DNA from: an uncultured Gammaproteobacteria bacterium
Lineage (GTDB): Bacteria > Patescibacteriota > Microgenomatia > CAYQLK01
Reading direction: 5' to 3'
Assembly: GCA_964404855.1 (NCBI GenBank)
Contig: CAYOLO010000001.1
Location: forward strand, 30,245-94,244
DNA: 64,000 nt
The notes beneath the pieces are model-generated. The model was not told the origin of the DNA. It worked only from the letters and a program-made list of their open reading frames with translations, and did not search any database. The translations under genes were made by a program, and so were the position numbers. Below are positions 1-50,453 of the stretch, piece by piece; the first letter of the stretch is position 1, and each line of letters begins with the position of its first letter.

Positions 1-1029
1 CCAACCTCGACTCCGACACAAATTCCTGAACCAACTCAAACACCTGCACCGACAGCAACACCAATAGTTCGCCCGAGGTACATATCTTCACTACAAGATC
101 CAGTTCAGCCAGAAGCAACGAAAATTGTTGTTGGCGGAGCAAGTGATTACGTTGTGGGGAGTAGATTCACACTGAATTTTGGTACCCCAACTAGCGAAAC
201 GATACAGGTTATCGCTGTTGGATTCGAAAGAAGACCAAATCATGGTGTAAACATTTTAACGCTCAATCAGGCTCTACTGTTTGCTCACACAGTCGGCGAG
301 AGCTTGACAGAAGCGCAAGCGGAATCCGTACCCATTCCTGTCAGCCCAGCAAATGTTAGTTTCGTGTTTGACCCATCTACGTCAGATGAAGATCGCGAAC
401 TAATTGTGAATGCAATTGCATTTGCTCACAACTTCTTTTCTGAGAATCTCGGTCGCACCGTTACAGACCAGATAGAAGTTAAGACACTTCAGCAAGGATG
501 CTTGAATGGAGGACAATACGTCGCCTATCCTGGTGGTCTCTGTATCACCATAGGAACAGGCGAATGGTTGTCGTTAAGCAAGAATGGCAAAGCTAAGATT
601 TTGGCTCATGAGTACTATCATATCCTCCAGATTTCAGTTGGGTGCATTCAGTGGGGGGATTTCTTCACCTACTACAACACCCCCAACTGGCTAACGGAAG
701 GAGCGGCAGAATTCGTAGCTAGTCTCGTTTTGTCATACTCAGGCGGAACCCCCATAGAAGCCTCACGGCTTTCATTGAAGCAGAACATCGAGATTAATCC
801 ACCTGATGCTTTGAGTCGGTACGAGACGCAAGCAGTGAGGCTTCGGTATGATCTTGCTGCTTTAGCGTCAGACCGAATCTCAGGCGGTAGCGCACCAAAA
901 CTATTGGCCTACTGTAGCCTTAGGGCAAACGGCCAAGAGTGGCACGAATCGGCTTTCCAGGCTTTCGGACTTACTGTCCCAGAATTCTACGAGCAGTTCG
1001 AGCTTTACCGCGCGAACGGCTACAAGTAA
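1..1029 (+). CDS. 5'-partial secreted protein: Pro/Thr-rich linker then a domain with an HEYYH (HExxH-type) motif; putative Zn-metallopeptidase-like
   Basis: The frame is open from the window edge through the Met at 154. It contains the LAHEYYHILQ motif. GC is about 49% against about 33% for most of the window. Confidence 0.45.
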   Translation, partial: PTSTPTQIPEPTQTPAPTATPIVRPRYISSLQDPVQPEATKIVVGGASDYVVGSRFTLNFGTPTSETIQVIAVGFERRPNHGVNILTLNQALLFAHTVGESLTEAQAESVPIPVSPANVSFVFDPSTSDEDRELIVNAIAFAHNFFSENLGRTVTDQIEVKTLQQGCLNGGQYVAYPGGLCITIGTGEWLSLSKNGKAKILAHEYYHILQISVGCIQWGDFFTYYNTPNWLTEGAAEFVASLVLSYSGGTPIEASRLSLKQNIEINPPDALSRYETQAVRLRYDLAALASDRISGGSAPKLLAYCSLRANGQEWHESAFQAFGLTVPEFYEQFELYRANGYK

Positions 1030-26197: not shown

Positions 26198-27381
26198 ATG
26201 CCAAGCAAAAAAAGACTATTTATTTTCTCATTATTCTCTATACTATTTTTAACTGGAGTTTTTTCTAAATCTTTAACTAGTTATTTGCCTGATTTTGCTA
26301 CCAATATTGGTGGCGTTGGTGATAAAAATATTGCTCAACTGAAAAAGTGTGAGGAAAAACCTTATGATTCAATACAGTTTGACAATTCAGAAAGAAGTAT
26401 TTGTTATAAATCAAGCATTACCAAGCTAATCAGTGACGAGTCTTTAGGTGCGACAATAAAAACCTTGAAGGCTTATATGCAAACAGATGAGGGTAAAGTA
26501 CTAAACGGCAGGAGATGCCACGATCTTGGACATGGAATTGGAATTGAGGCTGTAAAAAGAGGTATCCCAAGTAAAGAAATATTAACTGAGTGTGCGGACT
26601 GGTGTGTTGGCGGTTGTCTAAATGGTGCGGCGCATGTATATGTTCTTACTGACCATCAACCGGAAGAGTTAGTAAGTTTTTGCAATGTAGGTGGAGTTGC
26701 TGAAAATCTAAAAAGGATGTGCTACCACGGACTTGGCCATGGATATATGGAGGCAAATAGTGCTGACATAACAAAGACAATGGATTTTTGCGAACAAATA
26801 CCGTCCGAGCTTGGGCAGTACGAGTGTGGGCATGCTGCTGTTATGGATTATGCGCTTCTGTACACAGCACCAGTAAGAACAATTCCAGAAGATATTGTTG
26901 GTTTTTGCGACTCTAAGCAGGCGGTTTTTCGTCCTAGTTGTTATGAATTTGTTGGGTTTTTGGCATATTCAAGAACGGTCGATACTAAAGACTCGTTTGC
27001 TGCCTGTAAAAAAATACCTATGGAATATAGAGAAAATTGCCAAGAAAGAATTGGTGAAGCTTACTTTTCAATTCTCGGACGTGATCCTGAAAAAATAGTA
27101 AAAGGATGTGAAATTGGAAATGGAGAGGAGACCGTTGTATGAAAGGGGCAGTAAGATCTTCAATTTATGGCGCAGATAGTTCTTTTGGCGGGTTGGGGGC
27201 AAGGTTCTGCTCTCTATTAATAAGCGAAGGTTCGAGAATAATTTGTTTTGAATTTTTGGGTGGAGAAATAGAATCAGTTCACGGACAAGAGAGAAGAACA
27301 GAGACCTGTAATGAGTTGTCAGGAGCAGACAAAAAAAACTGTCAAAAGATCAGACAAGAAAGAGATATGACGATTAAATAA
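26198..27381 (+). pseudogene. Cys/His-rich paralog family member 10, interrupted by a 1-nt frameshift near 27130 (ORFs 26198-27142 and 27139-27381)
   Basis: The 80-aa downstream ORF (KGAVRSSIYGADSSFG...CNELSGADKKNC) aligns to the C-terminus of the 27384-28589 paralog (KGANIFSIHTPDSSFG...CETLTSIDKKSC). Confidence 0.55.
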
Positions 27382-27383
27382 GA

Positions 27384-28589
27384 ATGAGAATGAAAATGAA
27401 AATTAAAACCTTTGCCAAACCATATGTAATATTTTTTTTCGTTTTGGTAATTGGTATTGTGTCTAATATTTTTTTTGATTTACCAAAAGGAATATCTACA
27501 ACAAAAATTAACTCTCAACTTACAATACAAATGGAGGCTTGTGAAATCTATGAGTATTCAGACAGTAATTTTTTAGCCTCTGAGAGACGCACTTGTTACA
27601 ACGATAAAATTTTTAGCCATATACGCGAAAACGGCTTGAAAAGTACCCTCCTGGGACTTGAAGATTATATGAAAACTGAACAGGGATCGTATTTAGTCGG
27701 AACACGCTGTCATGATATTGGGCATGGTATTGGTATTGAGGCTGTAAAAGCTGGATATTCATCAAGAGAGATTTTGGAAACTTGTAGTACATCGTGTGAA
27801 GGTGGATGTTTAAATGGTGCGGGGCATGTATTTATTACAACGCTATCCAGAAATGGAGACTTAAATAGTTTTTGTGATTTGGATGGAATCAATAAAACGG
27901 TTCGCGATATGTGTTTTCATGGAATTGGACATGGACTGATGGAATATTACAGTTTGGATATTCCAAAAGTAATAAAGGATTGCCAAAGAATTGAAAAAAA
28001 TTCCGATAAATTTCAATGCGGACATGCGGCATTTATGGATACTAATTTAGTTAACCAAGCTCCTTTTGATAAAATCCCAAAAAAACTTTATGAGTACTGT
28101 AAAGAACTTGAAGAGGTACTAAGATATTCTTGTTATCAATTTGGCGGATTTTTGACTTTTGTTAGAGATCTAGATATTAATGAGTCATTCGATTTTTGTA
28201 CAAAAGTTCCAACTCAGATTTCTAATATCTGTTTTTCAAGAATTGGTGAGTCTGCATATTTGCGCAATAATGGGGATGCACAAAAAACTTTGGGGCTATG
28301 TAAGCGCGTAGAAAATAATCAGTTCAGAAGTTGCTTAAAGGGGGCTAATATTTTTTCAATTCATACCCCAGATAGTTCTTTTGGGACTAAAGCAAAAAAT
28401 ATTTGCTTAGCAGTTGAGGGAGAAGTTAGGTCGGGATGTCTGTCTGATTTGGGGGCAATGATTGTTAAAACTTACGGCAATGAGCAGTTAAATACTTTTT
28501 GTGAAACTTTAACCAGTATCGATAAAAAAAGTTGTTTTGAAATAAATCAGTCAATAATTAATGAACCTGATTTTGTACAGGCAGATTAA
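27384..28589 (+). CDS. secreted Cys/His-rich paralog family member 11
   Basis: Motifs RCHDIGHGIG, CEGGCLNGAGH, CFHGIGHG and CGHAAFMD. Confidence 0.6.
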   Translation: MRMKMKIKTFAKPYVIFFFVLVIGIVSNIFFDLPKGISTTKINSQLTIQMEACEIYEYSDSNFLASERRTCYNDKIFSHIRENGLKSTLLGLEDYMKTEQGSYLVGTRCHDIGHGIGIEAVKAGYSSREILETCSTSCEGGCLNGAGHVFITTLSRNGDLNSFCDLDGINKTVRDMCFHGIGHGLMEYYSLDIPKVIKDCQRIEKNSDKFQCGHAAFMDTNLVNQAPFDKIPKKLYEYCKELEEVLRYSCYQFGGFLTFVRDLDINESFDFCTKVPTQISNICFSRIGESAYLRNNGDAQKTLGLCKRVENNQFRSCLKGANIFSIHTPDSSFGTKAKNICLAVEGEVRSGCLSDLGAMIVKTYGNEQLNTFCETLTSIDKKSCFEINQSIINEPDFVQAD

Positions 28590-29260: not shown

Positions 29261-30307
29261 TTACCACGATGGAACAAAATCTTTAATGTTTTCTTCGGTG
29301 ATATGAAAATCTTTATTTTGGGTTTGAATTACCTGAAACGCGATACGCCTAGCAATACCACTAATAGTTCTCTCCAAGGACCTCATTCCACCGTCAAATC
29401 CGAGCGGTCTAATAATTTTTGACCAAACACCATCATCAACTGCAATTCTTACATCACTAAGACCTGAATTTTTAATAACTTTTGGGAAAATATATTTTTG
29501 GGCAATAACAAGTTTTTCTTCATCCGTATAAGATGGCATTTGTATTGGCTCAAGACGGTCCATGACAGCGGTTGCAATATTACCTGTATTGTTGGCCGTA
29601 GCCACAAACAGGACATCTGATAAATTAACGGGATAATCAAGATAATGGTCTGTAAAAGCTGAGTTTTGTTCTGGGTCAAGAAGCTCAACCAAGACACCCA
29701 TAATATCGTTTCTGGTTTCGGTTGAAACTCTATCTATTTCGTCTAAAAGTAAAACTGGATTACGGCTTTTGGCTCTTTTTAAGGCTTTTATGATTAAGCC
29801 AGGTTCTGCATCAGGATAGGCCCTGGATTGTCCGCGCAATTGAATTGAGTCCCCCATTCCTCCAAAAGGAATACGAATAAATTCTCTACCCATGGCTTCG
29901 GCAATTGATATTGCCATTGTGGTTTTTCCTGTTCCAACTAGTCCAATAAGAAATAAAATTGGCGCTCTGGAAACACCGGCGTTTTGTATTAATTGGAGTT
30001 TAAGTACCGAAAGATATTCGATGATTCTGGTCTTAATTGGATCCAGTCCGTAGTGATTTTTGTCAAAAACTTCCTTGGCTTTCGTGAGATCAAGCAAGTC
30101 GTTGGTTTTGGAGTTCCATGGCATAGAGACAATCCAATCAATATATCTACTGACGGCTTCGTATTCGTTACTGTAACTTCCGAGTGTAACCATACGCTCA
30201 AGTCTGGTCAGTTGGGAATTAACTTTTTCCAATAGATCAGGAGGAAGCTGAACTTGTTGAACTTTTTGAGCGAGTTTTGCGATGTCTTCTTGGGCAGTTT
30301 GGGGCAT
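29261..30307 (-). CDS. Lon-type AAA+ ATPase without a recognisable S16 peptidase domain
   Basis: GLVGTGKTT (Walker A), LLLDEIDR (Walker B), close to the Lon ATPase module. The C-terminus lacks a Ser-Lys dyad region. Confidence 0.6.
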   Translation of the reverse strand: MPQTAQEDIAKLAQKVQQVQLPPDLLEKVNSQLTRLERMVTLGSYSNEYEAVSRYIDWIVSMPWNSKTNDLLDLTKAKEVFDKNHYGLDPIKTRIIEYLSVLKLQLIQNAGVSRAPILFLIGLVGTGKTTMAISIAEAMGREFIRIPFGGMGDSIQLRGQSRAYPDAEPGLIIKALKRAKSRNPVLLLDEIDRVSTETRNDIMGVLVELLDPEQNSAFTDHYLDYPVNLSDVLFVATANNTGNIATAVMDRLEPIQMPSYTDEEKLVIAQKYIFPKVIKNSGLSDVRIAVDDGVWSKIIRPLGFDGGMRSLERTISGIARRIAFQVIQTQNKDFHITEENIKDFVPSW

Positions 30308-30362
30308 ATAGGAATTTTAACGGAAAAAAAGTAATTTAGCTATGAAGTTTTAATTTGAGTTT

Positions 30363-30398
30363 AAAAAAAATACACCCCACCGAAATCTAGTGGGGTGT
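30363..30398 (-). terminator. intrinsic terminator
   Basis: ACACCCCAC / GTGGGGTGT hairpin followed by an 8-nt T-run on the minus strand. Confidence 0.65.
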
Positions 30399-30680
30399 TG
30401 CGTGGACACACTACATTGTCTTACTGCTCCAAGAACAGCCAATGTGGCAAGTTAGACACCGCCACCACGAAGTACCATTTTTGGACGGACTGACTTGGTT
30501 GAGTGCACCATGTATTTCACACGATGGATATGTTCCGGCAGGAAAAACTTCCAAACCAAAACGATTAACTGACAATACCTTTCCTTGTGGTTCAGGTAGT
30601 GCAGTGAGACTGTTAGAAAGATGCCAAGAACCGCGGATCAACTCAATTACCAGCCTTACTTTCGGGTGTGTGGGAGAAAG
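30363..30680 (-). ncRNA. candidate structured non-coding RNA (unknown class) ending in an intrinsic terminator
   Basis: About 300 nt at about 46% GC between two minus-strand terminators (30700-30733 and 30363-30398). The only ORFs are Cys/Trp/His-rich frames that look random. Possible -10 TATACT near 30672. Confidence 0.25.
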
Positions 30681-30699
30681 TATACACAATACAATAAAA

Positions 30700-30733
30700 A
30701 ATATGAAAAAGGACCGCCTTTTTAGGGGCGGTC
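30700..30733 (-). terminator. intrinsic terminator
   Basis: GGACCGCC / GGCGGTCC hairpin and a T-run on the minus strand, directly after the stop of the GC-rich ORF. Confidence 0.65.
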
Positions 30734-30759
30734 CGTGGGGGGGGGTGGGAGGCCAGGCC

Positions 30760-31026
30760 TCAGTCGTTGTAGCCGAACATGTCCTGCATCATGGTGAAGT
30801 GCGCAGCGTCGCTCTCGCAGGGGCGGTAGCAGCCGGCAACATCACAGAGGGTCTGACGCTGGACGATGTTCTGCCGGGGCGGGGGCGGCTGCGGCGTCAT
30901 ACGAGCAGCACGCATGGCGAGCTGGTCGCCGATCCGGCGCTGATTGACGAGCCGCGAGGCTCCTTCGAGTGGACCACCTTCGTTTGCTAGTGTCATGACC
31001 ATGACTTGTCCTCCCGTTTGCCAAAC
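30760..31026 (-). CDS. small (about 88 aa) GC-rich ORF of foreign composition; Pro-rich middle, C-terminal Cys-containing segment (LCDVAGCYRPCESDAAHF); function unknown
   Basis: GGGAGGA RBS before ATGGTCATG. GC is about 65% with very high GC3. Own terminator. The track ORF 30760-31080 includes upstream sequence. Confidence 0.4.
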   Translation of the reverse strand, partial: VWQTGGQVMVMTLANEGGPLEGASRLVNQRRIGDQLAMRAARMTPQPPPPRQNIVQRQTLCDVAGCYRPCESDAAHFTMMQDMFGYND

Positions 31027-31262
31027 TTGAGCTGGCGTGGATACCTGTGACCGTAGTCGCAGGTAATCAATCCAGCTCAAACTTGAATATTAAATATGTT
31101 AATTTAACCACTTAATTATACCCTATAGTATATAATTTGTCAAGTGTTACTACACTAAGACATAACTTATAGTTTGATAATAACTCAGAAATATAGAATC
31201 ATTAAAGTATAAATTATCCTATTTGTGAACGGAAGTAATTAAATTTGTTATTATTAATTTAA

Positions 31263-34058
31263 ATGAAGACACTGCCAATTGACGCATCTGGGTTGGGACG
31301 AAAAATCGTACTTAATTTCATTCTCGGCGTAATTTTTATATTAATAATAAATGGGGTTTTTGTTGGTTATAAATTGTTGAACAGACAAGGTACACCCGAA
31401 AAAATAAATATTTCGACTTCTCAGGAAAATGCTGACAAGCTAAAAACTCAGCTAGTTTATAACTCTGAAGAAGAAGGTTATGGAAATTTTTATTCAAATG
31501 CTTTGGATGCTGTAATTACCTACCCAAAAGAAAAATTTGGATTTACTGACTCCGGAAGAAGTGTGCTAATTGAACCAAAGAGCAAAAAAAGATTCGATTC
31601 GGTTGTGTTTAATAGTTTATTTCTTTACAAGTTTGATCAGGAAACAGTAGGTGAAAATATTGACGAATTCCTTATAAATGAACTTAAGTCGGATACAACC
31701 ATAATCAGTTCGGAACTAATTGATGCTAAAAACGAAAGAGAAATACGAAAAATAAAATTCAAAACCAAAGAAAAAAGCATTTTTTCAAAAAACGACCAAG
31801 ATAAAATACAGATGTTTTTTGTGCACAAGATAGACAATGCTTACTTCCTTGCAAAAATTTCTTATCTTGGTGGTTTTGCTAACCAGCAATTAGAAAACGA
31901 TCTTGAAAAACTTTTGACCGAAGGTATTAAGTTAGGTTCGGAAGGAATAGAGAAAAATATTCAGGTGGTTATAGAGCCTTATATTTTAACGGATTCTGGA
32001 TTAAGTTTTAATTTTGACAGAACCAAATGGAGCGGAAGTTCTGATGCGGAACATGTAGTCAATTTGGAGTACAAACGTGAAGATCAATCAAAAGAAAAAT
32101 TAACCAGTTTAACTATTGGATTTGAAGTAGATAGTGATGCTAGTTTTGAAAAATCACTATCAGCTGCCAAAGAAAAGGAAGCGCTTAAAAAAAACGGTGT
32201 ATATAAAGACTCGTATAGACTGTTAACTGACGCTGAACCAGTTGAGATGCTGGGCACCACCTTTTATAAATCGACTTCTACTTATACTTCTGACTGTTGT
32301 AGTGATCTTGGTATACCTGCTTATAAGGCATTTAGTGTTACTTATTTCGGTTATGTAAAAGAGTTAAATTCCTATCTTGCTATTCATATCGATACCGACG
32401 ACTTAAACTCTCAAGGCTCAAAGGAAGCAGAAATTATTTCTGCAACACTCAACATACAAATACTTACAAAATCAATTTCAGCTAATTATACAAACCTACA
32501 AAGACGTGTTTTAGGGACTAGAACGGATGATAGTAATACTGTGGAGATTGATAAGCCGTCAGTCCTTGGACAGAACTCAATCGTACATATTTTTAATAAT
32601 TCCTGCGTGGACGCGACAATTGTGTCAATGCCTGAGACGAGCCAATACAACGGTAAGCAATATAGAATTTGTTCAGCAGGTGAAGGAACAGGGTTTTTTA
32701 TAAACGAAAATGGAAATCTGATTACTAATTCCCATGTTGCCAACCCTAGCCCTGAGGACATTGTATATGCTGATATTAATAACGCTGATTCTAAATTTTG
32801 GATAGATTATGCAACAGGATTTCTTAGTAACTTTACTACCGAGGAAGAATTATATGCAACATTTGAAACTACACAAGATTTATTGATTGCCATACTAGAA
32901 AGATTTATCGCCGACATTGATAATAATAATATTAAACTTGAAAAAGATTATGAGAACTATCTAGAAGGAAAAAATGCTTTTGAGTTTGATTACGCTCTTC
33001 GTGATTTAAAGGACAAGGATAAGCACATTAAAGCAAGTCTGGTTGACGGCACAATCGACTCTGGAATTAGAAGCTCTTATGATGCGATTCAACAATGGAA
33101 AAACGGAACTCCTGAGGAAGACATTGTGGCGGGTATAAATACCCCTGATGTTGCGGTGTTAAAAGTAGAAAAAAATTCAGAAATTGCCAATTTTCCAGGA
33201 CTTATTTTAGAAAACCCAAACCTTGTTACTGTTGGGCAAAATATACAAGCAATCGGATTCCCTGGTGTTGCTGATAATCGTTCATTGTTTTCAAAAGAAG
33301 CCTCAACAATTCCAACTATTACGAAGGGAACAATTTCTGCGATAAAACCAAATGTAAATAGCACTTTTAATCTAATCCAGATAGATGCCTCAATTAATCA
33401 CGGAAACAGTGGCGGACCTGTACTTAATAGTAAAGGCAGAGTTATTGGAATCTCGACATATGGAGTAAGTCCTGAAGAATCAGGTGGAAATTTTAATGCT
33501 GCGGTTTCTGTTGAGTCTATTCAAAAAATCTTAATGAAAAATAATATAGACAACCAAATCGGCCAGGCAAGTATCTACTTAGAAGACGGATTGGATAATA
33601 TACTGAGAACCTACTATTCTTTGGCGGTAACTGATTTAACAAAATCTAAAGAACTTTATAACTCAAAATACGATTTGATTACTCCGCTTATTAGCATTTC
33701 GGAAGAAAAAATCAGTCTTGGAGAGGATAATAGTCCATTGATTGTCATAGGGAGTCTGGAGCTTAAGAAAAACGATGTAATTATCATTATCGGTATAACC
33801 AGTATCGTAGTACTAATTATTCTAATAGTACTTATTATTTTGATAATTCGTTCACATAAAAAAATGCACGGCACTATGGCGAGAATTGAACAAAATCAAA
33901 TACCTAACTACCCTGCTCAACCTCAGGTTAACCAATCCCCATATCAGCCTGTAAACACAGCTCAAAATGTTTACCAACAGGTTCCGCCAACAAACATTAG
34001 CCAAAGTCCGCTACCAGCTGAAACACCTATTCAAAATCCCTTGAATCCTCAACAATAA
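31263..34058 (+). CDS. large membrane protein with an S1/trypsin-like (HtrA-type) serine protease domain, C-terminal TM helix and Pro/Gln-rich tail
   Basis: N-terminal TM helix. Triad-like GTGFFINENGNLITNSHV (His), TPDVAVLKVE (Asp) and NHGNSGGPVLN (Ser). TM VIIIIGITSIVVLIILIV. PQ-rich C-terminus. Confidence 0.6.
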   Translation: MKTLPIDASGLGRKIVLNFILGVIFILIINGVFVGYKLLNRQGTPEKINISTSQENADKLKTQLVYNSEEEGYGNFYSNALDAVITYPKEKFGFTDSGRSVLIEPKSKKRFDSVVFNSLFLYKFDQETVGENIDEFLINELKSDTTIISSELIDAKNEREIRKIKFKTKEKSIFSKNDQDKIQMFFVHKIDNAYFLAKISYLGGFANQQLENDLEKLLTEGIKLGSEGIEKNIQVVIEPYILTDSGLSFNFDRTKWSGSSDAEHVVNLEYKREDQSKEKLTSLTIGFEVDSDASFEKSLSAAKEKEALKKNGVYKDSYRLLTDAEPVEMLGTTFYKSTSTYTSDCCSDLGIPAYKAFSVTYFGYVKELNSYLAIHIDTDDLNSQGSKEAEIISATLNIQILTKSISANYTNLQRRVLGTRTDDSNTVEIDKPSVLGQNSIVHIFNNSCVDATIVSMPETSQYNGKQYRICSAGEGTGFFINENGNLITNSHVANPSPEDIVYADINNADSKFWIDYATGFLSNFTTEEELYATFETTQDLLIAILERFIADIDNNNIKLEKDYENYLEGKNAFEFDYALRDLKDKDKHIKASLVDGTIDSGIRSSYDAIQQWKNGTPEEDIVAGINTPDVAVLKVEKNSEIANFPGLILENPNLVTVGQNIQAIGFPGVADNRSLFSKEASTIPTITKGTISAIKPNVNSTFNLIQIDASINHGNSGGPVLNSKGRVIGISTYGVSPEESGGNFNAAVSVESIQKILMKNNIDNQIGQASIYLEDGLDNILRTYYSLAVTDLTKSKELYNSKYDLITPLISISEEKISLGEDNSPLIVIGSLELKKNDVIIIIGITSIVVLIILIVLIILIIRSHKKMHGTMARIEQNQIPNYPAQPQVNQSPYQPVNTAQNVYQQVPPTNISQSPLPAETPIQNPLNPQQ

Positions 34059-34082
34059 TTAAGAATAATCAAATAATATTTG

Positions 34083-34790
34083 TTATTTTGGTTGAATTGT
34101 AAATCCGGTATATTTCTTCGATGAGGGATCTTGGTAAAAATTCGTAGTAAATTGGTTTTCAGAAACGGCTTGAAGGTTAAAAACTTTTACAAGCTTGTCT
34201 TTGTCAGAAGTGTCATACCCATCGATGATGTACAAACTAATTTTTAAGAATGCGCCGTTAGCATCAAAATAAAAGTCGACAAAATAACCACTTCCACGAT
34301 AAGTTGAGCGAGTTTCTAATGTTGTTCCATCTTTAACAGTATCCTCGGTCTGCCCAAGTGACTTGGTAACCTCGGTCAAATTTTGTCCAGCAAGCGACCC
34401 CAGGTCTATAAGTAAATCTGAACCGAAGTCGTTAACTGTTGGACTTGTATCGATTGAAGTCGCGGTTTCGTTAGTGGGAGATGGTTTATTTGGTAATACC
34501 TCTTGTGTGTCATCAGATTTTTGTATTACGGATTCGTTTTTATTTTTTGGGTCAGAAGTTGGGGAGGAAGTATCTTTATTTAGGATAAGAAAAAGACCGA
34601 TTCCGATTACAGCAAGAAATACTATCGACACAAAAATTAAAAGTATTATTAGAACTGAGGGTGTTTTCTTGGAAACTGGAGGCTGATAAATAGGCTGACT
34701 TGGCATCGCTTGCGGACTTGGAGGAATCGGCTGAACAGTCGACTGGTTGAGAGATGATTGGTTTGGAATAACTTCAGGGTAGTCAGGCAT
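34083..34790 (-). CDS. Pro/Gln-rich N-terminus, single-TM protein (tandem paralog set, 1 of 3)
   Basis: N-terminal PQ-rich segment followed by KKTPS and a TM helix. Downstream domain shares LGxxxD blocks with its neighbours. Confidence 0.45.
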   Translation of the reverse strand: MPDYPEVIPNQSSLNQSTVQPIPPSPQAMPSQPIYQPPVSKKTPSVLIILLIFVSIVFLAVIGIGLFLILNKDTSSPTSDPKNKNESVIQKSDDTQEVLPNKPSPTNETATSIDTSPTVNDFGSDLLIDLGSLAGQNLTEVTKSLGQTEDTVKDGTTLETRSTYRGSGYFVDFYFDANGAFLKISLYIIDGYDTSDKDKLVKVFNLQAVSENQFTTNFYQDPSSKKYTGFTIQPK

Positions 34791-35506
34791 TATTTATTTA
34801 TTGAAATTGATATATATGAATCCTCGTTATTATTGTATATAAATTTATACTCATATGGTGGCACGACATTATTAAGATTAAAAAGCGATTTCATCTCAGC
34901 TTCTGTTTCTCTTTCGTAGAATTCTATAAATTCAATTCGTATTCCATTATTAATATTCGTAACATTGTCGATGTTAACTAATAAATAGTAAGGAAGACCA
35001 GAATGTTCCTTTGGATACATGACTAATGTCGTCATGTCGAAATCCGTATTTTCTATATCGTGTGGCTCACCTAATAAAGAAATTATTTCTTCTTTCGTTT
35101 TTCCTAGAATTGTATTGGGGTCAAAAATTACCGATGACTGAGAGTTGTCAGCGGTATCAGTTGAGATTTCCGCTGCTTGAATTTCCTGAGGTTTCGGTGT
35201 AGGGGTGGCGGTAGGCTTTGGTGCGTATGTTACCTGAGGAACTGAGGTTGGAGAAATTTTCACGTTTGCCACAATCTCCGTATCTTTACTGTTTTGCCCG
35301 TATTGGGTTGATGCTGGTTTTTTCATTAGTAAGAACATGCCAATAATAATTCCACTTATCAAGGTAAGTCCAAAAATTATGATTATGATAATTAATATTT
35401 TATGATTTGAATTGTTGGGCTGAAATTGTGGCGGTTGCGATATTGTGGCAGATGTCTGATTAGTACTGGGAGGATTAGATAGAGAGCTAGAACCAGAGTA
35501 TTCCAT
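34790..35506 (-). CDS. Pro/Gln-rich N-terminus, single-TM protein (2 of 3)
   Basis: The block ILGKTKEEIISLLGEPHD resembles LINKTKQEVYSILGEPNN in the 35506-36255 protein. Confidence 0.45.
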   Translation of the reverse strand: MEYSGSSSLSNPPSTNQTSATISQPPQFQPNNSNHKILIIIIIIFGLTLISGIIIGMFLLMKKPASTQYGQNSKDTEIVANVKISPTSVPQVTYAPKPTATPTPKPQEIQAAEISTDTADNSQSSVIFDPNTILGKTKEEIISLLGEPHDIENTDFDMTTLVMYPKEHSGLPYYLLVNIDNVTNINNGIRIEFIEFYERETEAEMKSLFNLNNVVPPYEYKFIYNNNEDSYISISINK

Positions 35507-36255
35507 TATTCATATTCCTCTAAAGAAAAGTCGGTTGAGCCTGTTGGATAAATACTCACAGCAGAAATAAAATTATATTTTTCGATAATATTGTCCTTGA
35601 TAAAATATTCTGTCGCAGATGTTGAAAGGTTTAAGGCTTTGTATATATCGTCTTGTTTAAAAACTATTCCATAAGGGTCTTGGGGGACTGATACGCTGAT
35701 ATATCTAAATTCTTGACTATCTAAATCATAATAAACAGAAATAGACCAATCATTATCGTAGTTGTACCAACTAATTCCATTATTAGGTTCACCGAGAATT
35801 GAATAAACTTCTTGTTTAGTCTTGTTTATAAGACTCGGCACATCATAAAGAATTCCTAAGTCTGGTGCTTGCGAAGCTTGATTTTCAACACCTGACTCTT
35901 GTGATTTTTCGGAAGAAGATTTGTCATCTAGTGATGAATCCGATTTAGAAATAAGATTGGATTTCTCATTTGTGTCTTGAACTGTTTTCGATCTGGTAAT
36001 AAAAAAAACTGCACCGCAAATTGCAATTATCAGAACAAGACCAATAACCAAAGCAATAATGATTAGTTTTTTGGAAGATTTTGGACTTTGAGAGATTGGA
36101 TTTGTACTTACTGGCTGAGTGACAACTTCTGGTTGTGGCGGAAAAGTAGTTGGTGTTGGTTGACTGGGAAATTGTTGGGAGGGTTGAGCAATCGGCTGAA
36201 CAGGTGGCAGTTGACTGCCAAGAGGCGGTTGAGGGTCTGTAGGCAGATTATCCAT
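35506..36255 (-). CDS. Pro/Gln-rich N-terminus, single-TM protein (3 of 3)
   Basis: As above. ATGA-type abutment with the neighbouring gene. Confidence 0.45.
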   Translation of the reverse strand: MDNLPTDPQPPLGSQLPPVQPIAQPSQQFPSQPTPTTFPPQPEVVTQPVSTNPISQSPKSSKKLIIIALVIGLVLIIAICGAVFFITRSKTVQDTNEKSNLISKSDSSLDDKSSSEKSQESGVENQASQAPDLGILYDVPSLINKTKQEVYSILGEPNNGISWYNYDNDWSISVYYDLDSQEFRYISVSVPQDPYGIVFKQDDIYKALNLSTSATEYFIKDNIIEKYNFISAVSIYPTGSTDFSLEEYE

Positions 36256-47275: not shown

Positions 47276-47333
47276 AGAATGAATTAAAGATTCATTCTCT
47301 CGTTGAGACAGGAGACCTGAAACATAAAAAAGC

Positions 47334-47560
47334 CCCCTGAGAGTGGAGGTGTGGTACTCTCAGAGGGCGAAGAAAATGGTGGCTGGAGTGGTACGTTTTA
47401 CGTACTGGATTAGTACGAGGTCGAAATCTTGACTTCACCAGGGTCGTACCGCCAAGCCTGGCGGAGACGACGATTCGCACGGCGCTTGAGGAAGCAACGG
47501 CCTTTTGGTCCGCGGTACTCGAGGGCGGAGCCGAGAGACTTGATCGGGCTGTACTTCAAC
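47334..47560 (-). other. GC-rich (about 60%) structured element ending in a strong minus-strand intrinsic terminator; candidate small RNA or remnant of foreign DNA
   Basis: Hairpin CCCTCTGAGAGT/ACTCTCAGGGGG plus T-run at 47334-47377. Internal long stem GTCGTACCGCCAagccTGGCGGAGACGAC. No convincing ORF. Confidence 0.3.
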
Positions 47561-47728
47561 AGACACTCCAATTTGTTAATTTGTTGACACTATTATATAT
47601 TATTATAGGTCTTTTGTCAAGTACTATGGGCCTTAATATTAGAAGTACTTTTATTCACAGGGCTGTGTTGTAAATAAAATTTTGAGAGTAATTGAGGGCG
47701 AATAAAAGAGGTTAGGTGATTGAGAATT

Positions 47729-49088: not shown

Positions 49089-49120
49089 ATAAAAAAAGCC
49101 CTCCTTTTTAGGGGAGGGCG
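49089..49120 (-). terminator. intrinsic terminator
   Basis: GCCCTCC/GGAGGGC hairpin plus T-run on the minus strand, after the cupin gene. Confidence 0.65.
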
Positions 49121-49142
49121 TGTGGGATGGATAGAGCGGATA

Positions 49143-49670
49143 TTAACCGTTCCATCCGCGGTTTGGGTCGGCGCGCATTTCCTCGGTCTCGACCTGGGAG
49201 CGAGGATAGTCGTCATGCAGACGAACCGTCCTACCAGTCTCGGGGGTGGAGAATTCGGCGATTACGCAATCCGTAACCGCTTCCAGGCGGTGAACCGTCG
49301 GTGGCTTGATTCGGTATCCCACGAACGGTTCCATCTTGACCGGACGAAGATTGTCCGGCGAATTGCCGATCCAGAGGATTGCTTCGCCGCTGATCAGGCA
49401 CATGGTCTCGTCTTTTGCGGGCTTTCCCCCGCTGGGTCCATGACCGAGACTTTGGGCGTGATACTGCATGGACAACCTGCAGCCAGCTTTGATGTGTTCG
49501 AGTTTCCCGGTGTATTCCGCGGTTTCGGCCACGATCAGCTCGTGTCCCCACGGCTTCATGACCGTTTTGGCCATCGGCTCGGTGCCAGCTACGGCGGGGA
49601 ACAGATTCCTGTCGCCGTTATCGTCGACAATCTTCCACATTTCTGCAGCAGACGGTTGCGAGCGAGTCAT
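49143..49670 (-). CDS. cupin-domain protein (phosphomannose-isomerase-type cupin), GC-rich foreign composition
   Basis: KPWGHELIVAE...QYHAQSLGHG...GYRIKPPTVHRLEAV cupin motifs. GC is about 60%. The mirror-strand ORF 49122-49673 is an artefact of the high GC. Confidence 0.6.
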   Translation of the reverse strand: MTRSQPSAAEMWKIVDDNGDRNLFPAVAGTEPMAKTVMKPWGHELIVAETAEYTGKLEHIKAGCRLSMQYHAQSLGHGPSGGKPAKDETMCLISGEAILWIGNSPDNLRPVKMEPFVGYRIKPPTVHRLEAVTDCVIAEFSTPETGRTVRLHDDYPRSQVETEEMRADPNRGWNG

Positions 49671-49803
49671 TAGGTTCTCCTTTATTTGTTAAGGTTAGAC
49701 GCGAATTATAACATAACTATCCTATAATATTCAATTTGTGGACAATATCTGATATAATTTCGCCTTAGGCAAATTAACAAATCCAACGAAAGAGGAAAAC
49801 ATC

Positions 49804-50091
49804 TTGTCTTGTCGGATTATGGAGGTAACATTCCCCTTGCGCCAGTTCGCTTACGGACTCGGCAACGACTATATGCCCGGCGACTATTTGTTCGCTCCGC
49901 ATGAAGAAGACCTGACGAGCGACGAACCAAACGTCCGCGTGACGACCAAGCCCCACGAAGGCGAAGAGATCGAAGTGCCCAAGGGCAAGGTTCGCGCCAC
50001 CAACTTCGTGGCCGAAGAACAACCACCTCTTCGCCCGCTCATGCCGGCGGCTCGACCGACGATGGCTAAGCTCGGCGCTTTGGCCCGATAG
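49804..50091 (+). CDS. small GC-rich ORF, unknown function (likely start at the internal MEVTF)
   Basis: High GC3. Co-oriented with the following small membrane ORF and a shared terminator. Confidence 0.3.
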   Translation: MSCRIMEVTFPLRQFAYGLGNDYMPGDYLFAPHEEDLTSDEPNVRVTTKPHEGEEIEVPKGKVRATNFVAEEQPPLRPLMPAARPTMAKLGALAR

Positions 50092-50099
50092 GCCAAAAG

Positions 50100-50333
50100 A
50101 TGCAGACTGACGTCGAGTTTCTCGCCGAAGCACACGCTCAGCCAGAGTACGAAAAGCGAAAGATTCGGAAATACCGATTCCAAGCCGTACTGACAGCGTT
50201 GTTCACGACCTTTTTCGCTGCCACTGGATACCTGCTGTTTGATTTCATCGGACTGTTGGTAGTCTTCATCCTGTTTCTCATACTGACCACGCAGTCAGAA
50301 TGGAAGCAGTGGTTCCTCTTTCTTAGGCGTTGA
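50100..50333 (+). CDS. small hydrophobic membrane protein (77 aa), GC-rich cassette
   Basis: Two predicted TM segments. Followed by the terminator at 50359-50390. Confidence 0.35.
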   Translation: MQTDVEFLAEAHAQPEYEKRKIRKYRFQAVLTALFTTFFAATGYLLFDFIGLLVVFILFLILTTQSEWKQWFLFLRR

Positions 50334-50358
50334 TCCTCTGGGATTGCCGCACAGCCAC

Positions 50359-50390
50359 GACCCTCGATTAACCTCGAGGGTCTTTTTTTA
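50359..50390 (+). terminator. intrinsic terminator
   Basis: GACCCTCGA/TCGAGGGTC hairpin followed by a 7-nt T-run. Confidence 0.7.
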
Positions 50391-50453
50391 AGCATTAGGT
50401 CTCTTAATGCGCAGGAATGTAATTACTCACAAAATAAATTTTGTTATGTCTTG

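What the first reader, a model, noticed from the sequence alone, without database searches (positions are those of the whole stretch)
30363..31080. GC-rich foreign cassette 1: small Cys-containing ORF with its own RBS and terminator, plus adjacent candidate ncRNA
Between the Lon-like ATPase gene and the large protease gene, GC jumps from about 33% to about 65% over about 370 bp (30700-31080). The only coherent frame is a minus-strand ORF of about 88 aa (GGGAGGA-N6-ATGGTCATG...) with very high GC3. It has a Pro-rich centre and a C-terminal segment TLCDVAGCYRPCESDAAHFTMMQDMFGYND. It ends in a GC-rich hairpin plus T-run. This looks like a leader-plus-core small peptide (RiPP-precursor-like) or a small regulatory protein from a high-GC donor. 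Immediately downstream, about 300 nt of intermediate GC with no plausible ORF is closed by a second terminator, a candidate sRNA. Both edges are sharp, flanked by AT-rich DNA.
Basis: seen in the sequence. Interest (0 to 1): 0.65.

Follow-up and report, generated by a model that had tools for sequence, protein, structure and literature searches.

The report
Two tiny native genes, one GC-rich
The GC-rich patch is a real, conserved 80-residue protein gene that a small clade of ultra-small (CPR/Paceibacterota) bacteria has inherited vertically while keeping it GC-rich, and the supposed non-coding RNA beside it is a second small protein gene missing from every annotation checked; neither is recently imported DNA.

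Summary
The sequence features are real. Window 30700-31000 is 58-71% GC in a 37% GC window. It holds a minus-strand ORF (30760-31002, 80 aa, not 88) with SD GGGAGGA-N6-ATG and an intrinsic terminator.

(1) ORF1 is not a recent foreign cassette. Nine distinct alleles occur in about ten independent assemblies of related Paceibacterota. All lie in the same place, directly upstream of a Lon-like AAA gene. All share a perfect TTGACA-N17-TATAAT promoter, a covarying 56-nt 5'UTR hairpin and the same terminator. No homologue was found in any other lineage, phage or plasmid. Four-fold sites have turned over as much as in the neighbouring gene (60% differ) yet remain 80-85% G/C, against 33-38% next door. 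The GC-richness is therefore maintained, not a relic.

(2) The "sRNA" (30363-30700) is a second protein gene, ORF2 (30411-30641, TTG start, 76 aa). Its dN/dS is 0.05-0.24, no gene is called there in the three records checked, and no protein in 5.8 billion shares words with it. It is an insertion found in only one subclade.

(3) No RiPP enzyme lies in the 64 kb. ORF1's conserved C-x4-C-x3-[C/H]-x5-H pattern suggests a metal site.

Function is inferred only. ORF1 shares promoter, 5' and terminator motifs with two other GC-rich units in the window.

The parts
31115..31143 (-). Promoter of ORF1: TTGACA (31138-31143), 17-nt spacer, TATAAT (31115-31120). It is a 12/12 consensus match.
   Evidence: The two hexamers are conserved (one allele, L008, has TACAAT) across all nine full-length alleles, including the deep lineages L002, L006 and L014. 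The spacer motif ACTATAGGGTA recurs only in the promoter of the cassette-2 cupin gene.
31094..31105 (-). AAATTAACATAT box at the start of the 5'UTR, 9 nt after the -10 hexamer.
   Evidence: Conserved in the ORF1 orthologues. The same 12-mer AAATTAACAWAT lies 9-12 nt after the TATAAT of two other GC-rich units (47571-47582, 49771-49782), and the cupin gene carries TTAACAAAT. Its role is unknown.
31026..31081 (-). 56-nt 5'UTR hairpin: 22 base pairs in two stems, separated by invariant internal loops.
   Evidence: RNAalifold and pair counts give 98% of cells paired and 8 pairs with compensatory changes. 0/500 shuffles reach the covariation score, and slid controls pair only 20-37%. A covariance model finds the hairpin once per locus and nowhere else in the window. 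It has no Rfam family.
31009..31015 (-). Shine-Dalgarno sequence GGGAGGA, 6 nt upstream of the ATG.
   Evidence: It is invariant in all orthologues.
30760..31002 (-). ORF1: an 80-aa, lysine-free protein. It has a predicted N-terminal helix, a Pro-rich linker and an invariant C-terminal domain, QTLC-x4-C-x3-[C/H]-x5-H...MQD.[FY]G.ND.
   Evidence: Coding is shown by codon-position differences of 9/11/34 between the window and L002, and by in-frame indels. dN/dS is about 0.2 in the closer comparisons. Position 62 is Cys in the shallow lineages and His in the deep ones. GC3 is 0.65-0.81 in all lineages. No Pfam, NCBIfam, PHROG, PADLOC or PDB match was found.
30703..30759 (-). 3'UTR of ORF1: a small hairpin overlapping the stop codon, a C-rich tract (CCTCCCACCCCCCCCC), then an intrinsic terminator (stem 30711-30734, loop CCTAAAAA) and a T-run.
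   Evidence: The terminator is conserved, with a compensatory A-U to G-C change in L006 and L014. The sequence CCCTAAAAAGG spanning the loop is shared only with the terminator of the cassette-2 cupin gene. The C-run length varies between assemblies (9 against 8).
30679..30707 (-). Weak promoter-like site for ORF2: TTCATA-N17-TATACT. It overlaps the T-run of the ORF1 terminator.
   Evidence: 9/12 match. TATACT and the upstream TGTG are invariant in the window, L004, L012 and L013. Function is not shown, and read-through from ORF1 is an alternative.
30411..30641 (-). ORF2: a 76-aa protein with a TTG start and no gene call in the records checked. It is rich in Cys, His and Trp, with the motif C41-x2-H44 ... 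C62-x2-C65-H66-x2-C69.
   Evidence: The frame is open in all lineages. Differences between the window and L013 fall 7/6/31 by codon position. dN/dS is 0.05-0.24. The antisense frame with coincident wobble positions carries stops in three lineages. No gene is called there in the records L001, L003 and L004, and no protein in 5.8 billion shares words with it. GC3 is 0.36, which is host-like.
30363..30398 (-). Intrinsic terminator of ORF2: a 10-bp stem at 30372-30398 followed by a T8 run.
   Evidence: Other lineages carry different, non-homologous terminators at this position.
30347..30697 (-). Extent of the roughly 350-bp insertion that carries ORF2, measured against the deep lineages.
   Evidence: The segment is present in the window, L003/L011, L004, L012, L013 and L015-L017. 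It is absent in L002, L006-L010 and L014, where the ORF1 terminator is followed after 45-75 nt by the AAA gene.

Best explanation
Window 30347-31143 holds two independent, very small protein-coding transcription units on the minus strand. Both are native to a narrow clade of Paceibacterota (CPR) bacteria.

Unit A (shown):
- A perfect sigma-70 consensus promoter drives an mRNA of about 405 nt.
- The roughly 105-nt leader starts with an AAATTAACATAT box and contains a 56-nt hairpin supported by covariation.
- A strong SD is followed by ORF1 and an intrinsic terminator.
- ORF1 is 80 aa and lysine-free. Its N-terminal half evolves fast, and its C-terminal 30 residues are nearly invariant.
- Four potential ligands, C-x4-C-x3-[C/H]-x5-H, are conserved, with a Cys/His exchange between lineages.

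Unit A (inferred):
- ORF1 is an abundantly expressed cytoplasmic small protein with a metal site, most likely zinc.
- The leader hairpin controls mRNA processing, stability or translation. At 22 bp it is long enough to be a substrate for a double-strand-specific RNase, or it may bind a protein.

GC-richness:
- Shown: it is a maintained property of the transcribed unit, not a remnant of recent transfer.
- Inferred: selection acts on the mRNA through resistance to decay or overall foldedness, or through use of codons that are rare in this host.

Unit B:
- Shown: ORF2 is a 76-aa gene with a TTG start and no gene call in the records checked. It was inserted between ORF1 and the Lon-like AAA gene in one subclade and is under strong purifying selection.
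- Inferred: its C-x2-H...C-x2-C-H-x2-C pattern forms a zinc-ribbon-like knuckle pair.
For: ORF1 is a real gene:
- Third-position excess and in-frame indels.
- dN/dS of about 0.2 in the closer comparisons.

ORF1 is inherited vertically:
- Synteny NusA-IF2-S15-PNPase, then ORF1, then Lon-like AAA and UDG in L002 and L006-L010.
- ORF1 dS tracks AAA dS: 0.35 against 0.36 for L012, and 0.84 against 1.02 for L013.
- The profile search of 1.84 billion representatives returned only two genuine clusters.
- Four species-level genomes carry it in GTDB.
- No viral, phage or plasmid relative was found.

GC-richness is maintained:
- GC3 is 0.65-0.81 in every lineage, against 0.29-0.43 for the adjacent AAA gene.
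- At four-fold sites between the window and L006, 60% differ in both genes. Those sites are 85/80% G/C in ORF1 and 33/38% in AAA.
- Arg is encoded almost only by CGN, Leu by CTN, and there is no Lys, even in the fast-evolving N-terminus.

RNA elements:
- Hairpin covariation.
- The whole transcript folds with z = -5.1 against dinucleotide shuffles.
- Synonymous-codon permutation gives negative z in all six alleles tested, from -0.4 to -2.7.

Metal site:
- C53, C58 and H68 are invariant.
- Position 62 is Cys in six alleles and His in L006, L008 and L014.

ORF2:
- Coding tests.
- It occurs only in the syntenic position.
Against: - No experimental or homology-based evidence of function exists for either protein.
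- The AlphaFold models are poor (pLDDT 56 and 55), and fold searches returned nothing significant.
- Metal binding rests only on the ligand pattern.
- Synonymous sites of ORF1 are not more conserved than the neighbour's at short distance. No specific RNA structure is therefore constrained across the CDS, and the synonymous-permutation z-scores are modest.
- Polarised counts show more GC-to-AT than AT-to-GC changes at ORF1 third positions, for example 5:1 and 12:4. Taken at face value this fits slow decay. However, parsimony with a long outgroup branch is biased in exactly this direction.
- ORF2 has a non-ATG start and only a weak SD and promoter, so its expression is unproven.
Confidence: 0.6

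Rival explanations
1. Recently acquired foreign cassette. ORF1 arrived by horizontal transfer from a high-GC donor and has not yet ameliorated.
For: Composition is strongly atypical: GC3 is 0.75 against 0.22-0.40 for host genes, with CGN Arg codons and no Lys. The edges are sharp. Polarised counts show an excess of GC-to-AT changes.
Against: - ORF1 is present at the same locus in all sampled members of the clade, down to 44-48% protein identity, and its dS tracks the neighbour's.
- The promoter and leader are AT-rich and host-like.
- No donor homologue exists in 1.84 billion cluster representatives (of about 15 billion proteins), nor in viral contigs, phages or plasmids.
- No mobility gene, tRNA or flanking repeat is present.
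- Four-fold sites are as diverged as the neighbour's yet still 80-85% GC.
- An ancient transfer into the clade ancestor cannot be excluded, but that alone would not explain why GC is retained.
Confidence: 0.07
2. RiPP precursor. ORF1 (or ORF2) is a leader-plus-core peptide, modified by enzymes encoded elsewhere in the genome and then cleaved and exported.
For: Both are small and Cys-containing. ORF2 has an F-G-L-E-V box and an S-P-S-K site followed by a C-terminus rich in Ser, Thr, Cys and Trp. From memory, this resembles class I lanthipeptide leaders (FNLD box, PR/PQ cleavage site). A trypsin-like membrane protease is adjacent in the window.
Against: - Pfam finds no LanB/C/M, radical SAM, YcaO, cyclodehydratase, peptidase-containing ABC transporter or other maturation enzyme among about 45 proteins of the window or in the syntenic loci.
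- The protease adjacency is specific to one lineage; the ancestral upstream neighbour is PNPase.
- In ORF1 the putative core is invariant and the putative leader evolves fast, the opposite of most RiPP families.
- The Cys-to-His swap at position 62 suits a metal ligand rather than a thioether donor.
Confidence: 0.08
3. The 30363-30700 segment is a non-coding sRNA.
For: It has its own terminator and intermediate GC. The fold z-score is -1.9. No gene is called there in the records checked.
Against: - Codon-periodic substitution of 7/6/31, and 27 synonymous against 10 non-synonymous codon differences.
- The frame is open in all four lineages, while every other frame has stops or mostly non-synonymous changes.
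- dN/dS is 0.05-0.24.
- No Rfam match even at E <= 10.
Confidence: 0.03
4. Dual-function RNA. The GC-rich ORF1 transcript is also a structured regulatory or sponge RNA, and that second role is what keeps it GC-rich.
For: The whole transcript folds far better than shuffles (z = -5.1). All six synonymous-permutation z-scores are negative, two of them at or below -2.5. The leader hairpin and the stop-codon hairpin are conserved. GC-richness ends exactly at the transcript boundaries.
Against: Silent sites are not slower than the neighbour's at short distance, so no extensive specific structure is conserved inside the CDS. No target or partner is known.
Confidence: 0.12
5. Local GC-biased gene conversion. 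The unit is a recombination hot spot, and biased repair rather than selection keeps it GC-rich.
For: L012 and L004 are almost identical across the unit except for six clustered differences in the last 40 nt of ORF1. There L012 matches the L013/L002 type, which looks like a recombination tract.
Against: This is a single anecdotal tract. GC-richness coincides with transcript boundaries in three separate units, which is not expected of recombination hot spots. No Chi-like or repeat element flanks the unit.
Confidence: 0.1

Closest known systems
Small zinc-finger or zinc-ribbon proteins of prokaryotes (for example Brz of Halobacterium, PMC2253796; from memory, the small CPxCG-related zinc-finger proteins of archaea)
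   Same: Size under 100 aa, a cytoplasmic character, four conserved Cys/His ligands and stand-alone transcription units. ORF2 has two knuckle-like pairs, C-x2-H and C-x2-C.
   Different: No sequence or profile similarity to any Pfam, NCBIfam or PDB entry. The ORF1 spacing C-x4-C-x3-[C/H]-x5-H matches no zinc-finger class I can name. Metal binding is untested.
Horizontally acquired genomic islets recognised by atypical GC content (the classical amelioration model)
   Same: Sharp compositional discontinuity, atypical codon usage, and an orphan gene.
   Different: There is no donor and no mobility signature. The position is conserved across a clade. Silent sites turn over without losing GC, the opposite of what amelioration predicts.
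RiPP precursor peptides (class I lanthipeptide LanA type)
   Same: Small size, Cys content, and for ORF2 a leader-like FxLEV box with an S/T/C-rich C-terminus.
   Different: No tailoring enzyme, transporter or immunity gene was found in 64 kb or in the syntenic loci. The 'core' is invariant. The ligand-like Cys/His exchange points away from thioether chemistry.
Structured 5' leaders cleaved by RNase III, such as the E. coli pnp leader (from memory)
   Same: A long (22 bp) imperfect hairpin in the leader of a strongly transcribed gene, here located next to rpsO-pnp. G-U pairs and compensatory changes show that it acts as RNA.
   Different: No sequence relation. Cleavage has not been shown, and the internal loops are invariant, which fits a protein-binding site equally well.
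Codon-based expression control by rare codons (Streptomyces bldA/TTA; from memory)
   Same: A handful of genes use codons that are rare in the host genome.
   Different: This is the mirror image (GC-rich codons in an AT-rich genome) and affects whole genes rather than single codons. No dedicated tRNA has been identified. It is an analogy only.

Membership tests
Horizontally transferred island or cassette | Composition and codon usage atypical for the host | tested here: met
   GC3 is 0.75 against 0.22-0.40 for host genes. Arg is CGN only, and there is no Lys.
Horizontally transferred island or cassette | Homologues in a plausible donor lineage, or a patchy distribution among relatives | tested here: not met
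   Only two clusters, both from the same clade. ORF1 is present in every syntenic relative sampled. Nothing was found in viral contigs, phages or plasmids.
Horizontally transferred island or cassette | Mobility signatures: integrase or transposase, a tRNA target, flanking direct repeats | tested here: not met
   No tRNA in the window. No flanking repeats. The neighbours are PNPase or a protease, and the AAA and UDG genes.
Horizontally transferred island or cassette | Composition decaying towards the host's (amelioration) | tested here: inconclusive
   Four-fold sites are 60% diverged yet still 80-85% GC, which argues against decay. Parsimony-polarised counts show an excess of GC-to-AT changes, but that method is biased in this direction.
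RiPP precursor peptide | A cognate maturation enzyme encoded nearby | tested here: not met
   Pfam scans of about 45 window proteins, and the precomputed domains of the syntenic loci, show none. Genes elsewhere in the genome could not be checked.
RiPP precursor peptide | Leader and core architecture with a recognisable leader motif or cleavage site | tested here: inconclusive
   ORF1 shows the reverse pattern: a variable N-terminus and an invariant C-terminus. ORF2 has FGLEV and SPSK motifs that resemble class I leaders, but this resemblance is from memory only.
Bacterial sRNA or ncRNA (for 30363-30700) | No conserved reading frame, with conservation explained by structure | tested here: not met
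   A conserved 76-codon frame with dN/dS 0.05-0.24.
Bacterial sRNA or ncRNA (for 30363-30700) | Match to a described RNA family | tested here: not met
   No Rfam hit at gathering score or at E <= 10.
Small zinc-binding (zinc-finger or zinc-ribbon-like) protein | Four conserved Cys/His ligands, with Cys-His interchange tolerated | tested here: met
   ORF1: C53, C58 and H68 are invariant, and position 62 is Cys or His. ORF2: C41, H44, C62, C65, H66 and C69 are invariant.
Small zinc-binding (zinc-finger or zinc-ribbon-like) protein | Similarity to a known zinc-finger family or fold | tested here: not met
   No match in Pfam, NCBIfam or the PDB by sequence. The models have low confidence and Foldseek gives E > 1.
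Small zinc-binding (zinc-finger or zinc-ribbon-like) protein | Stoichiometric metal binding | not testable with these tools
   This needs metal analysis of the purified protein.
Cis-regulatory RNA structure (5'UTR hairpin) | Base pairs maintained by compensatory substitutions | tested here: met
   8 of 22 pairs carry double changes, 98% of cells are paired, and the shuffle and slide controls fail to match.

The most novel reading that the evidence does not exclude
ORF1 may belong to a small, co-regulated set of GC-rich mini-genes in an otherwise AT-rich CPR genome. The set would comprise ORF1, the cupin unit with its divergent small ORF at 49.1-50.4 kb, and a third unit at 47.33-47.62 kb. These units share several features:
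- a near-consensus promoter;
- an AAATTAACAWAT box at the 5' end of the transcript;
- for two of them, the same promoter-spacer motif and the same terminator sequence (CCCTAAAAAGG).

On this reading their GC-rich composition is itself the selected trait. It would form an expression programme based on mRNA stability or on rare GC-rich codons, the mirror image of TTA/bldA control in Streptomyces. ORF1 would be a lysine-free, metal-binding effector or adaptor made under that programme.
Probability: 0.15. Interest if true: 0.75.

Novelty: new variant of a known kind. Interest (0 to 1): 0.45.

Why it matters
- It shows that a sharp GC island is not by itself evidence of recent transfer. Here the island is clade-wide, syntenic and compositionally stable although its silent sites have turned over as much as the neighbouring gene's. 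This gives a clean natural case for asking what keeps a 250-bp gene GC-rich in an AT-rich, reduced genome. Candidate answers are mRNA stability, rare-codon control and biased gene conversion.
- It adds two previously unrecognised small-protein families to CPR bacteria. ORF2 has no gene call in the records checked and matches no protein in the 5.8-billion-sequence database, because it starts with TTG and is short.
- It identifies a new covarying leader hairpin and a shared 5' box that may define a small regulon.

If the proteins turn out to be ordinary zinc-binding regulators, the finding is a useful annotation correction rather than a discovery.

Tried and rejected
- **Rfam.** No family matched at gathering score on the whole window or at E <= 10 on 30250-31200. 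The mir-5882 hit merely reflects the hairpin.
- **tRNA and tmRNA.** ARAGORN found none.
- **Protein family libraries.** Pfam, NCBIfam, PHROGs, PADLOC and PDB sequence searches gave nothing for ORF1 or ORF2.
- **Structure.** AlphaFold2 gave pLDDT 56 for ORF1 (6-sequence alignment) and 55 for ORF2 (single sequence). Foldseek against the PDB then gave no hit with E < 1.
- **Homologue search for ORF2.** No candidate protein was found.
- **Viral contigs, phages and plasmids.** No relatives were found.
- **Paralogues.** ORF1 and ORF2 have none in the window.
- **Hairpin copies.** The leader-hairpin covariance model found no second copy.
- **Polarised substitution counts.** Judged unreliable because of parsimony bias with a long outgroup branch.
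- **First shuffle script.** It timed out and was replaced by synonymous-codon permutation.
- **Antisense ORF 30442-30990 (182 aa, plus strand).** Rejected. It has stops in L004, L012 and L013, and over ORF1 its first codon position coincides with ORF1's wobble position.
- **Heme-c reading of the ORF2 CLTCH motif.** Considered and set aside: there is no signal peptide, and this rests on context only.
- **Pup-like or degron reading of the invariant C-terminal G-[YS]-N-D next to the AAA gene.** Considered, but nothing supports it.
Full report
**Observation**

The compositional jump is real. 100-nt windows between 30700 and 30999 have 58-71% G+C, against 23-45% on either side and 36.9% for the whole window.

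The minus strand carries an ORF from ATG 31002 to the stop at 30760-30762. It encodes 80 aa, not about 88. GGGAGGA lies six bases before the ATG. The ORF is followed by the hairpin GGACCGCC-CCTAAAAA-GGCGGTCC plus a T-run at 30705-30734.

ORF1 GC3 is 0.75-0.76. Of the roughly 60 other ORFs in the window, all have GC3 of 0.22-0.40 except those in the two further GC-rich patches and one ORF at 154-1029.

**Not an assembly artefact**

The identical protein is encoded on an independent 1,007-bp Logan contig. That contig is 99.9% identical to window 30096-31103 and crosses both junctions. Seven further assemblies from other samples cross the junctions too.

**ORF1 is a real gene, restricted to one clade and inherited vertically**

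- The word-indexed search of 5.8 billion proteins found four relatives at 71-95% identity. One is annotated as a hypothetical protein of Candidatus Pacebacteria.
- A profile search of 1.84 billion cluster representatives added one more genuine relative, P0005 at 48% identity. Its two other hits were repetitive junk.
- A scan of 185,579 species genomes found four loci.
- Pairwise differences concentrate at third codon positions, for example 9/11/34 between the window and L002. All indels are in frame.
- In the deep lineages the gene sits in the block NusA-IF2-S15-PNPase, then ORF1, then Lon-like AAA and UDG. In the window lineage a roughly 5-kb block (the protease plus three membrane proteins) has been inserted between PNPase and ORF1.
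- ORF1 divergence follows that of the adjacent AAA gene. dS is 0.35 against 0.36 for L012 and 0.84 against 1.02 for L013. The deeper pairs are at or near saturation for both genes.
- The promoter, SD and terminator are conserved in all alleles. The terminator stem carries a compensatory A-U to G-C change in L006 and L014.

**The leader**

A 56-nt hairpin at 31026-31081 has 22 base pairs, of which 8 show changes on both sides. 98% of cells are paired. No shuffle out of 500 reaches the covariation score, and slid controls pair only 20-37%.

G-U pairs occur in the stems, and the internal loops are invariant. The hairpin therefore acts as RNA and probably presents a specific recognition surface.

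A covariance model finds it once per orthologous locus and nowhere else in the window. Rfam has no counterpart.

**GC-richness is maintained**

All nine alleles have GC3 of 0.65-0.81, whereas the adjacent AAA gene has 0.29-0.43.

At four-fold sites in codons with the same amino acid, 60% differ between the window and L006 in both ORF1 (20 sites) and AAA (127 sites). Those sites are 85/80% G/C in ORF1 and 33/38% in AAA.

A neutral GC-rich insert under the host's AT-biased mutation would have lost most of its excess GC over that much turnover. This is my inference from a two-state relaxation argument.

The N-terminal half evolves fast; dN over the whole ORF reaches 0.5. Yet it stays lysine-free, uses CGN for Arg and CTN for Leu, and stays rich in Ala, Pro, Gly and Arg. 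Composition appears to drive the amino-acid content there, rather than the reverse.

There are two caveats:
- Parsimony-polarised counts show more GC-to-AT than AT-to-GC changes. That method is biased towards common-to-rare changes when the outgroup branch is long, so I treat the result as inconclusive.
- At short distance silent sites evolve as fast as in AAA. No specific RNA fold is therefore constrained throughout the CDS.

The transcript as a whole folds much better than dinucleotide shuffles (z = -5.1). Permuting synonymous codons gives negative z-scores in all six alleles tested, from -0.4 to -2.7.

Because the GC-rich segment coincides with the transcript boundaries, I favour selection on the mRNA, through stability or rare-codon use. 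This step is inferred.

**The protein**

AlphaFold2 gives low confidence (pLDDT 56). It predicts a helix at residues 16-34, a Pro-rich linker and two short C-terminal helices. No fold or sequence match was found.

The informative feature is the ligand pattern. C53, C58 and H68 are invariant. Position 62 is Cys in the shallow lineages and His in L006, L008 and L014. A Cys/His exchange at a fixed position is typical of a structural metal site, so I propose zinc. Fe or Cu cannot be excluded; the C-terminus is also Met-rich.

**The 'sRNA' is a second gene**

Alignment of the segment between the two terminators shows that it is a roughly 350-bp insertion. It is present in the window, L003/L011, L004, L012, L013 and L015-L017. 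It is absent in L002, L006-L010 and L014.

Differences between the window and L013 fall 7/6/31 by codon position in the frame of 30411-30641. There are 27 synonymous and 10 non-synonymous codon changes. The frame is open in all lineages.

The antisense frame whose wobble positions coincide with this frame has stops in three lineages and a worse synonymous to non-synonymous ratio. dN/dS is 0.05-0.24. A TAG immediately upstream in L004 and L012 fixes the start at the TTG.

GC3 is 0.36, which is host-like, and GC2 is 0.55. The 'intermediate GC' therefore comes from the amino-acid content.

The protein is 76 aa, with the sequence ...FPAGTYPSCEIHGALNQVSPSKNGTSWWRCLTCHIGCSWS.... Its Cys and His residues are invariant in a C-x2-H...C-x2-C-H-x2-C pattern.

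No gene is called at this position in the three records whose gene calls I saw (L001, L003, L004), and no protein in the 5.8-billion-sequence database shares words with it. A tblastn-type scan of 241 million metagenome records found it only at the syntenic position.

**RiPP reading**

Pfam scans of about 45 window proteins, and the domain tables of the syntenic loci, show no tailoring enzyme. The adjacent protease is specific to one lineage.

ORF2 resembles a class I lanthipeptide leader (an FGLEV box and an SPSK site). That resemblance is recalled from memory and remains an untested lead.

**Context noticed on the way**

Two other GC-rich units in the window resemble unit A.

The first is the cupin gene (49143-49670, minus strand) together with its divergent small ORF. 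It is conserved in the deep lineage at 84% identity with GC3 of 0.67-0.70, against 0.34-0.38 for its neighbours.

The second is a unit at 47330-47620. It has another perfect consensus promoter, a possible 49-53-aa basic ORF and a strong terminator.

Several motifs are shared among these units:
- Exact CCCTAAAAAGG occurs only in the terminators of ORF1 and the cupin gene.
- Exact AYTATAGGRTA occurs only in their promoter spacers.
- The 12-mer AAATTAACAWAT lies 9-12 nt after the -10 of ORF1, the 47.6-kb unit and the plus-strand ORF of cassette 2. I estimate about 0.14 occurrences expected per window, and three are seen.

These similarities suggest shared regulation or a shared origin for the expression signals. 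I did not test this further.

**Verdict**

The 'foreign cassette' and 'sRNA' interpretations are not.

The region contains two native, clade-specific small protein genes. ORF1 is remarkable mainly because its GC-rich composition is actively maintained in an AT-rich reduced genome. ORF2 is a gene that the public annotations I could check have missed.

Function is inferred from motifs only.

Noticed in passing
window 49090-50395: A second GC-rich island. It holds a cupin-like gene (49143-49670, minus strand; PHROG 'cysteine dioxygenase', E = 9e-11), a divergent 90-aa ORF (49819-50091, plus strand) and a 77-aa membrane-like ORF (50100-50333). The cupin gene and the divergent ORF are conserved, and still GC-rich, in the deep lineage (L024: 84% aa identity, GC3 0.67-0.70 against 0.34-0.38 for neighbours).
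   Followed up: partly
window 47325-47620 (minus strand): A third GC-rich mini-unit. It has a perfect TTGACA-N17-TATAAT promoter (47592-47620), an AAATTAACAAAT box, a possible 49-53-aa basic ORF (47410-47571) and a strong terminator near 47330-47365. It has no Rfam match. Only near-identical copies were available, so coding could not be tested. It is absent from the deep lineage L024.
   Followed up: partly
window 31094-31105, 47571-47582, 49771-49782 and 49684-49692: A shared box, AAATTAACAWAT (TTAACAAAT in the cupin leader), lies 9-12 nt downstream of the -10 hexamer of all four GC-rich transcription units. It may be an operator or a 5'-end RNA motif.
   Followed up: partly
window 30703-30741 vs 49089-49126; 31119-31129 vs 49718-49728: The terminators of ORF1 and the cupin gene share the exact 11-mer CCCTAAAAAGG spanning the loop and a preceding TCCCAC(A/C)C. 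Their promoter spacers share AYTATAGGRTA. Each exact motif occurs only at these two places in the window.
   Followed up: partly
L012 vs L004, last ~40 nt of ORF1: The two alleles are almost identical across the 430-nt unit except for six clustered differences at the 3' end of ORF1. There L012 carries the L013/L002-type sequence (DLFGSND rather than DMFGYND). This looks like a short recombination tract.
   Followed up: no
window 30739-30747 vs L001: The homopolymer C-run in the ORF1 3'UTR differs in length between assemblies: 9 in the window and 8 in L001. This is either a sequencing or assembly slip or true variation.
   Followed up: no
window 30308-30345: The Lon-like AAA gene (29261-30307) has no SD. 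A TAAAAT -10-like hexamer lies 6 nt before its ATG, and this arrangement is conserved in all lineages. It may be a leaderless mRNA. The protein has the Lon ATPase module without the N-terminal or protease domains.
   Followed up: no
window 31263-36255: A 931-aa membrane-anchored trypsin-like protease and three Pro/Gln-rich membrane proteins (235-249 aa) form a roughly 5-kb block. In this lineage only, the block is inserted between PNPase and ORF1. In the deep lineages PNPase directly precedes ORF1.
   Followed up: partly
window 26198-28589: Two paralogous Cys-rich secreted proteins (314 and 401 aa) carry repeated C..GHG motifs and have no Pfam domain. They are conserved next to UDG in all lineages.
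   Followed up: no
window 154-1029: An ORF with moderately elevated GC (0.48, GC3 0.48) and no Pfam domain. It may be a further compositional outlier.
   Followed up: no
L012, L013, L014 (records CAYQLK01, CAYROP01, CAYUKQ01): Three MAG records that carry this Paceibacterota-type locus are titled 'uncultured Gammaproteobacteria bacterium'. The label is probably wrong.
   Followed up: no
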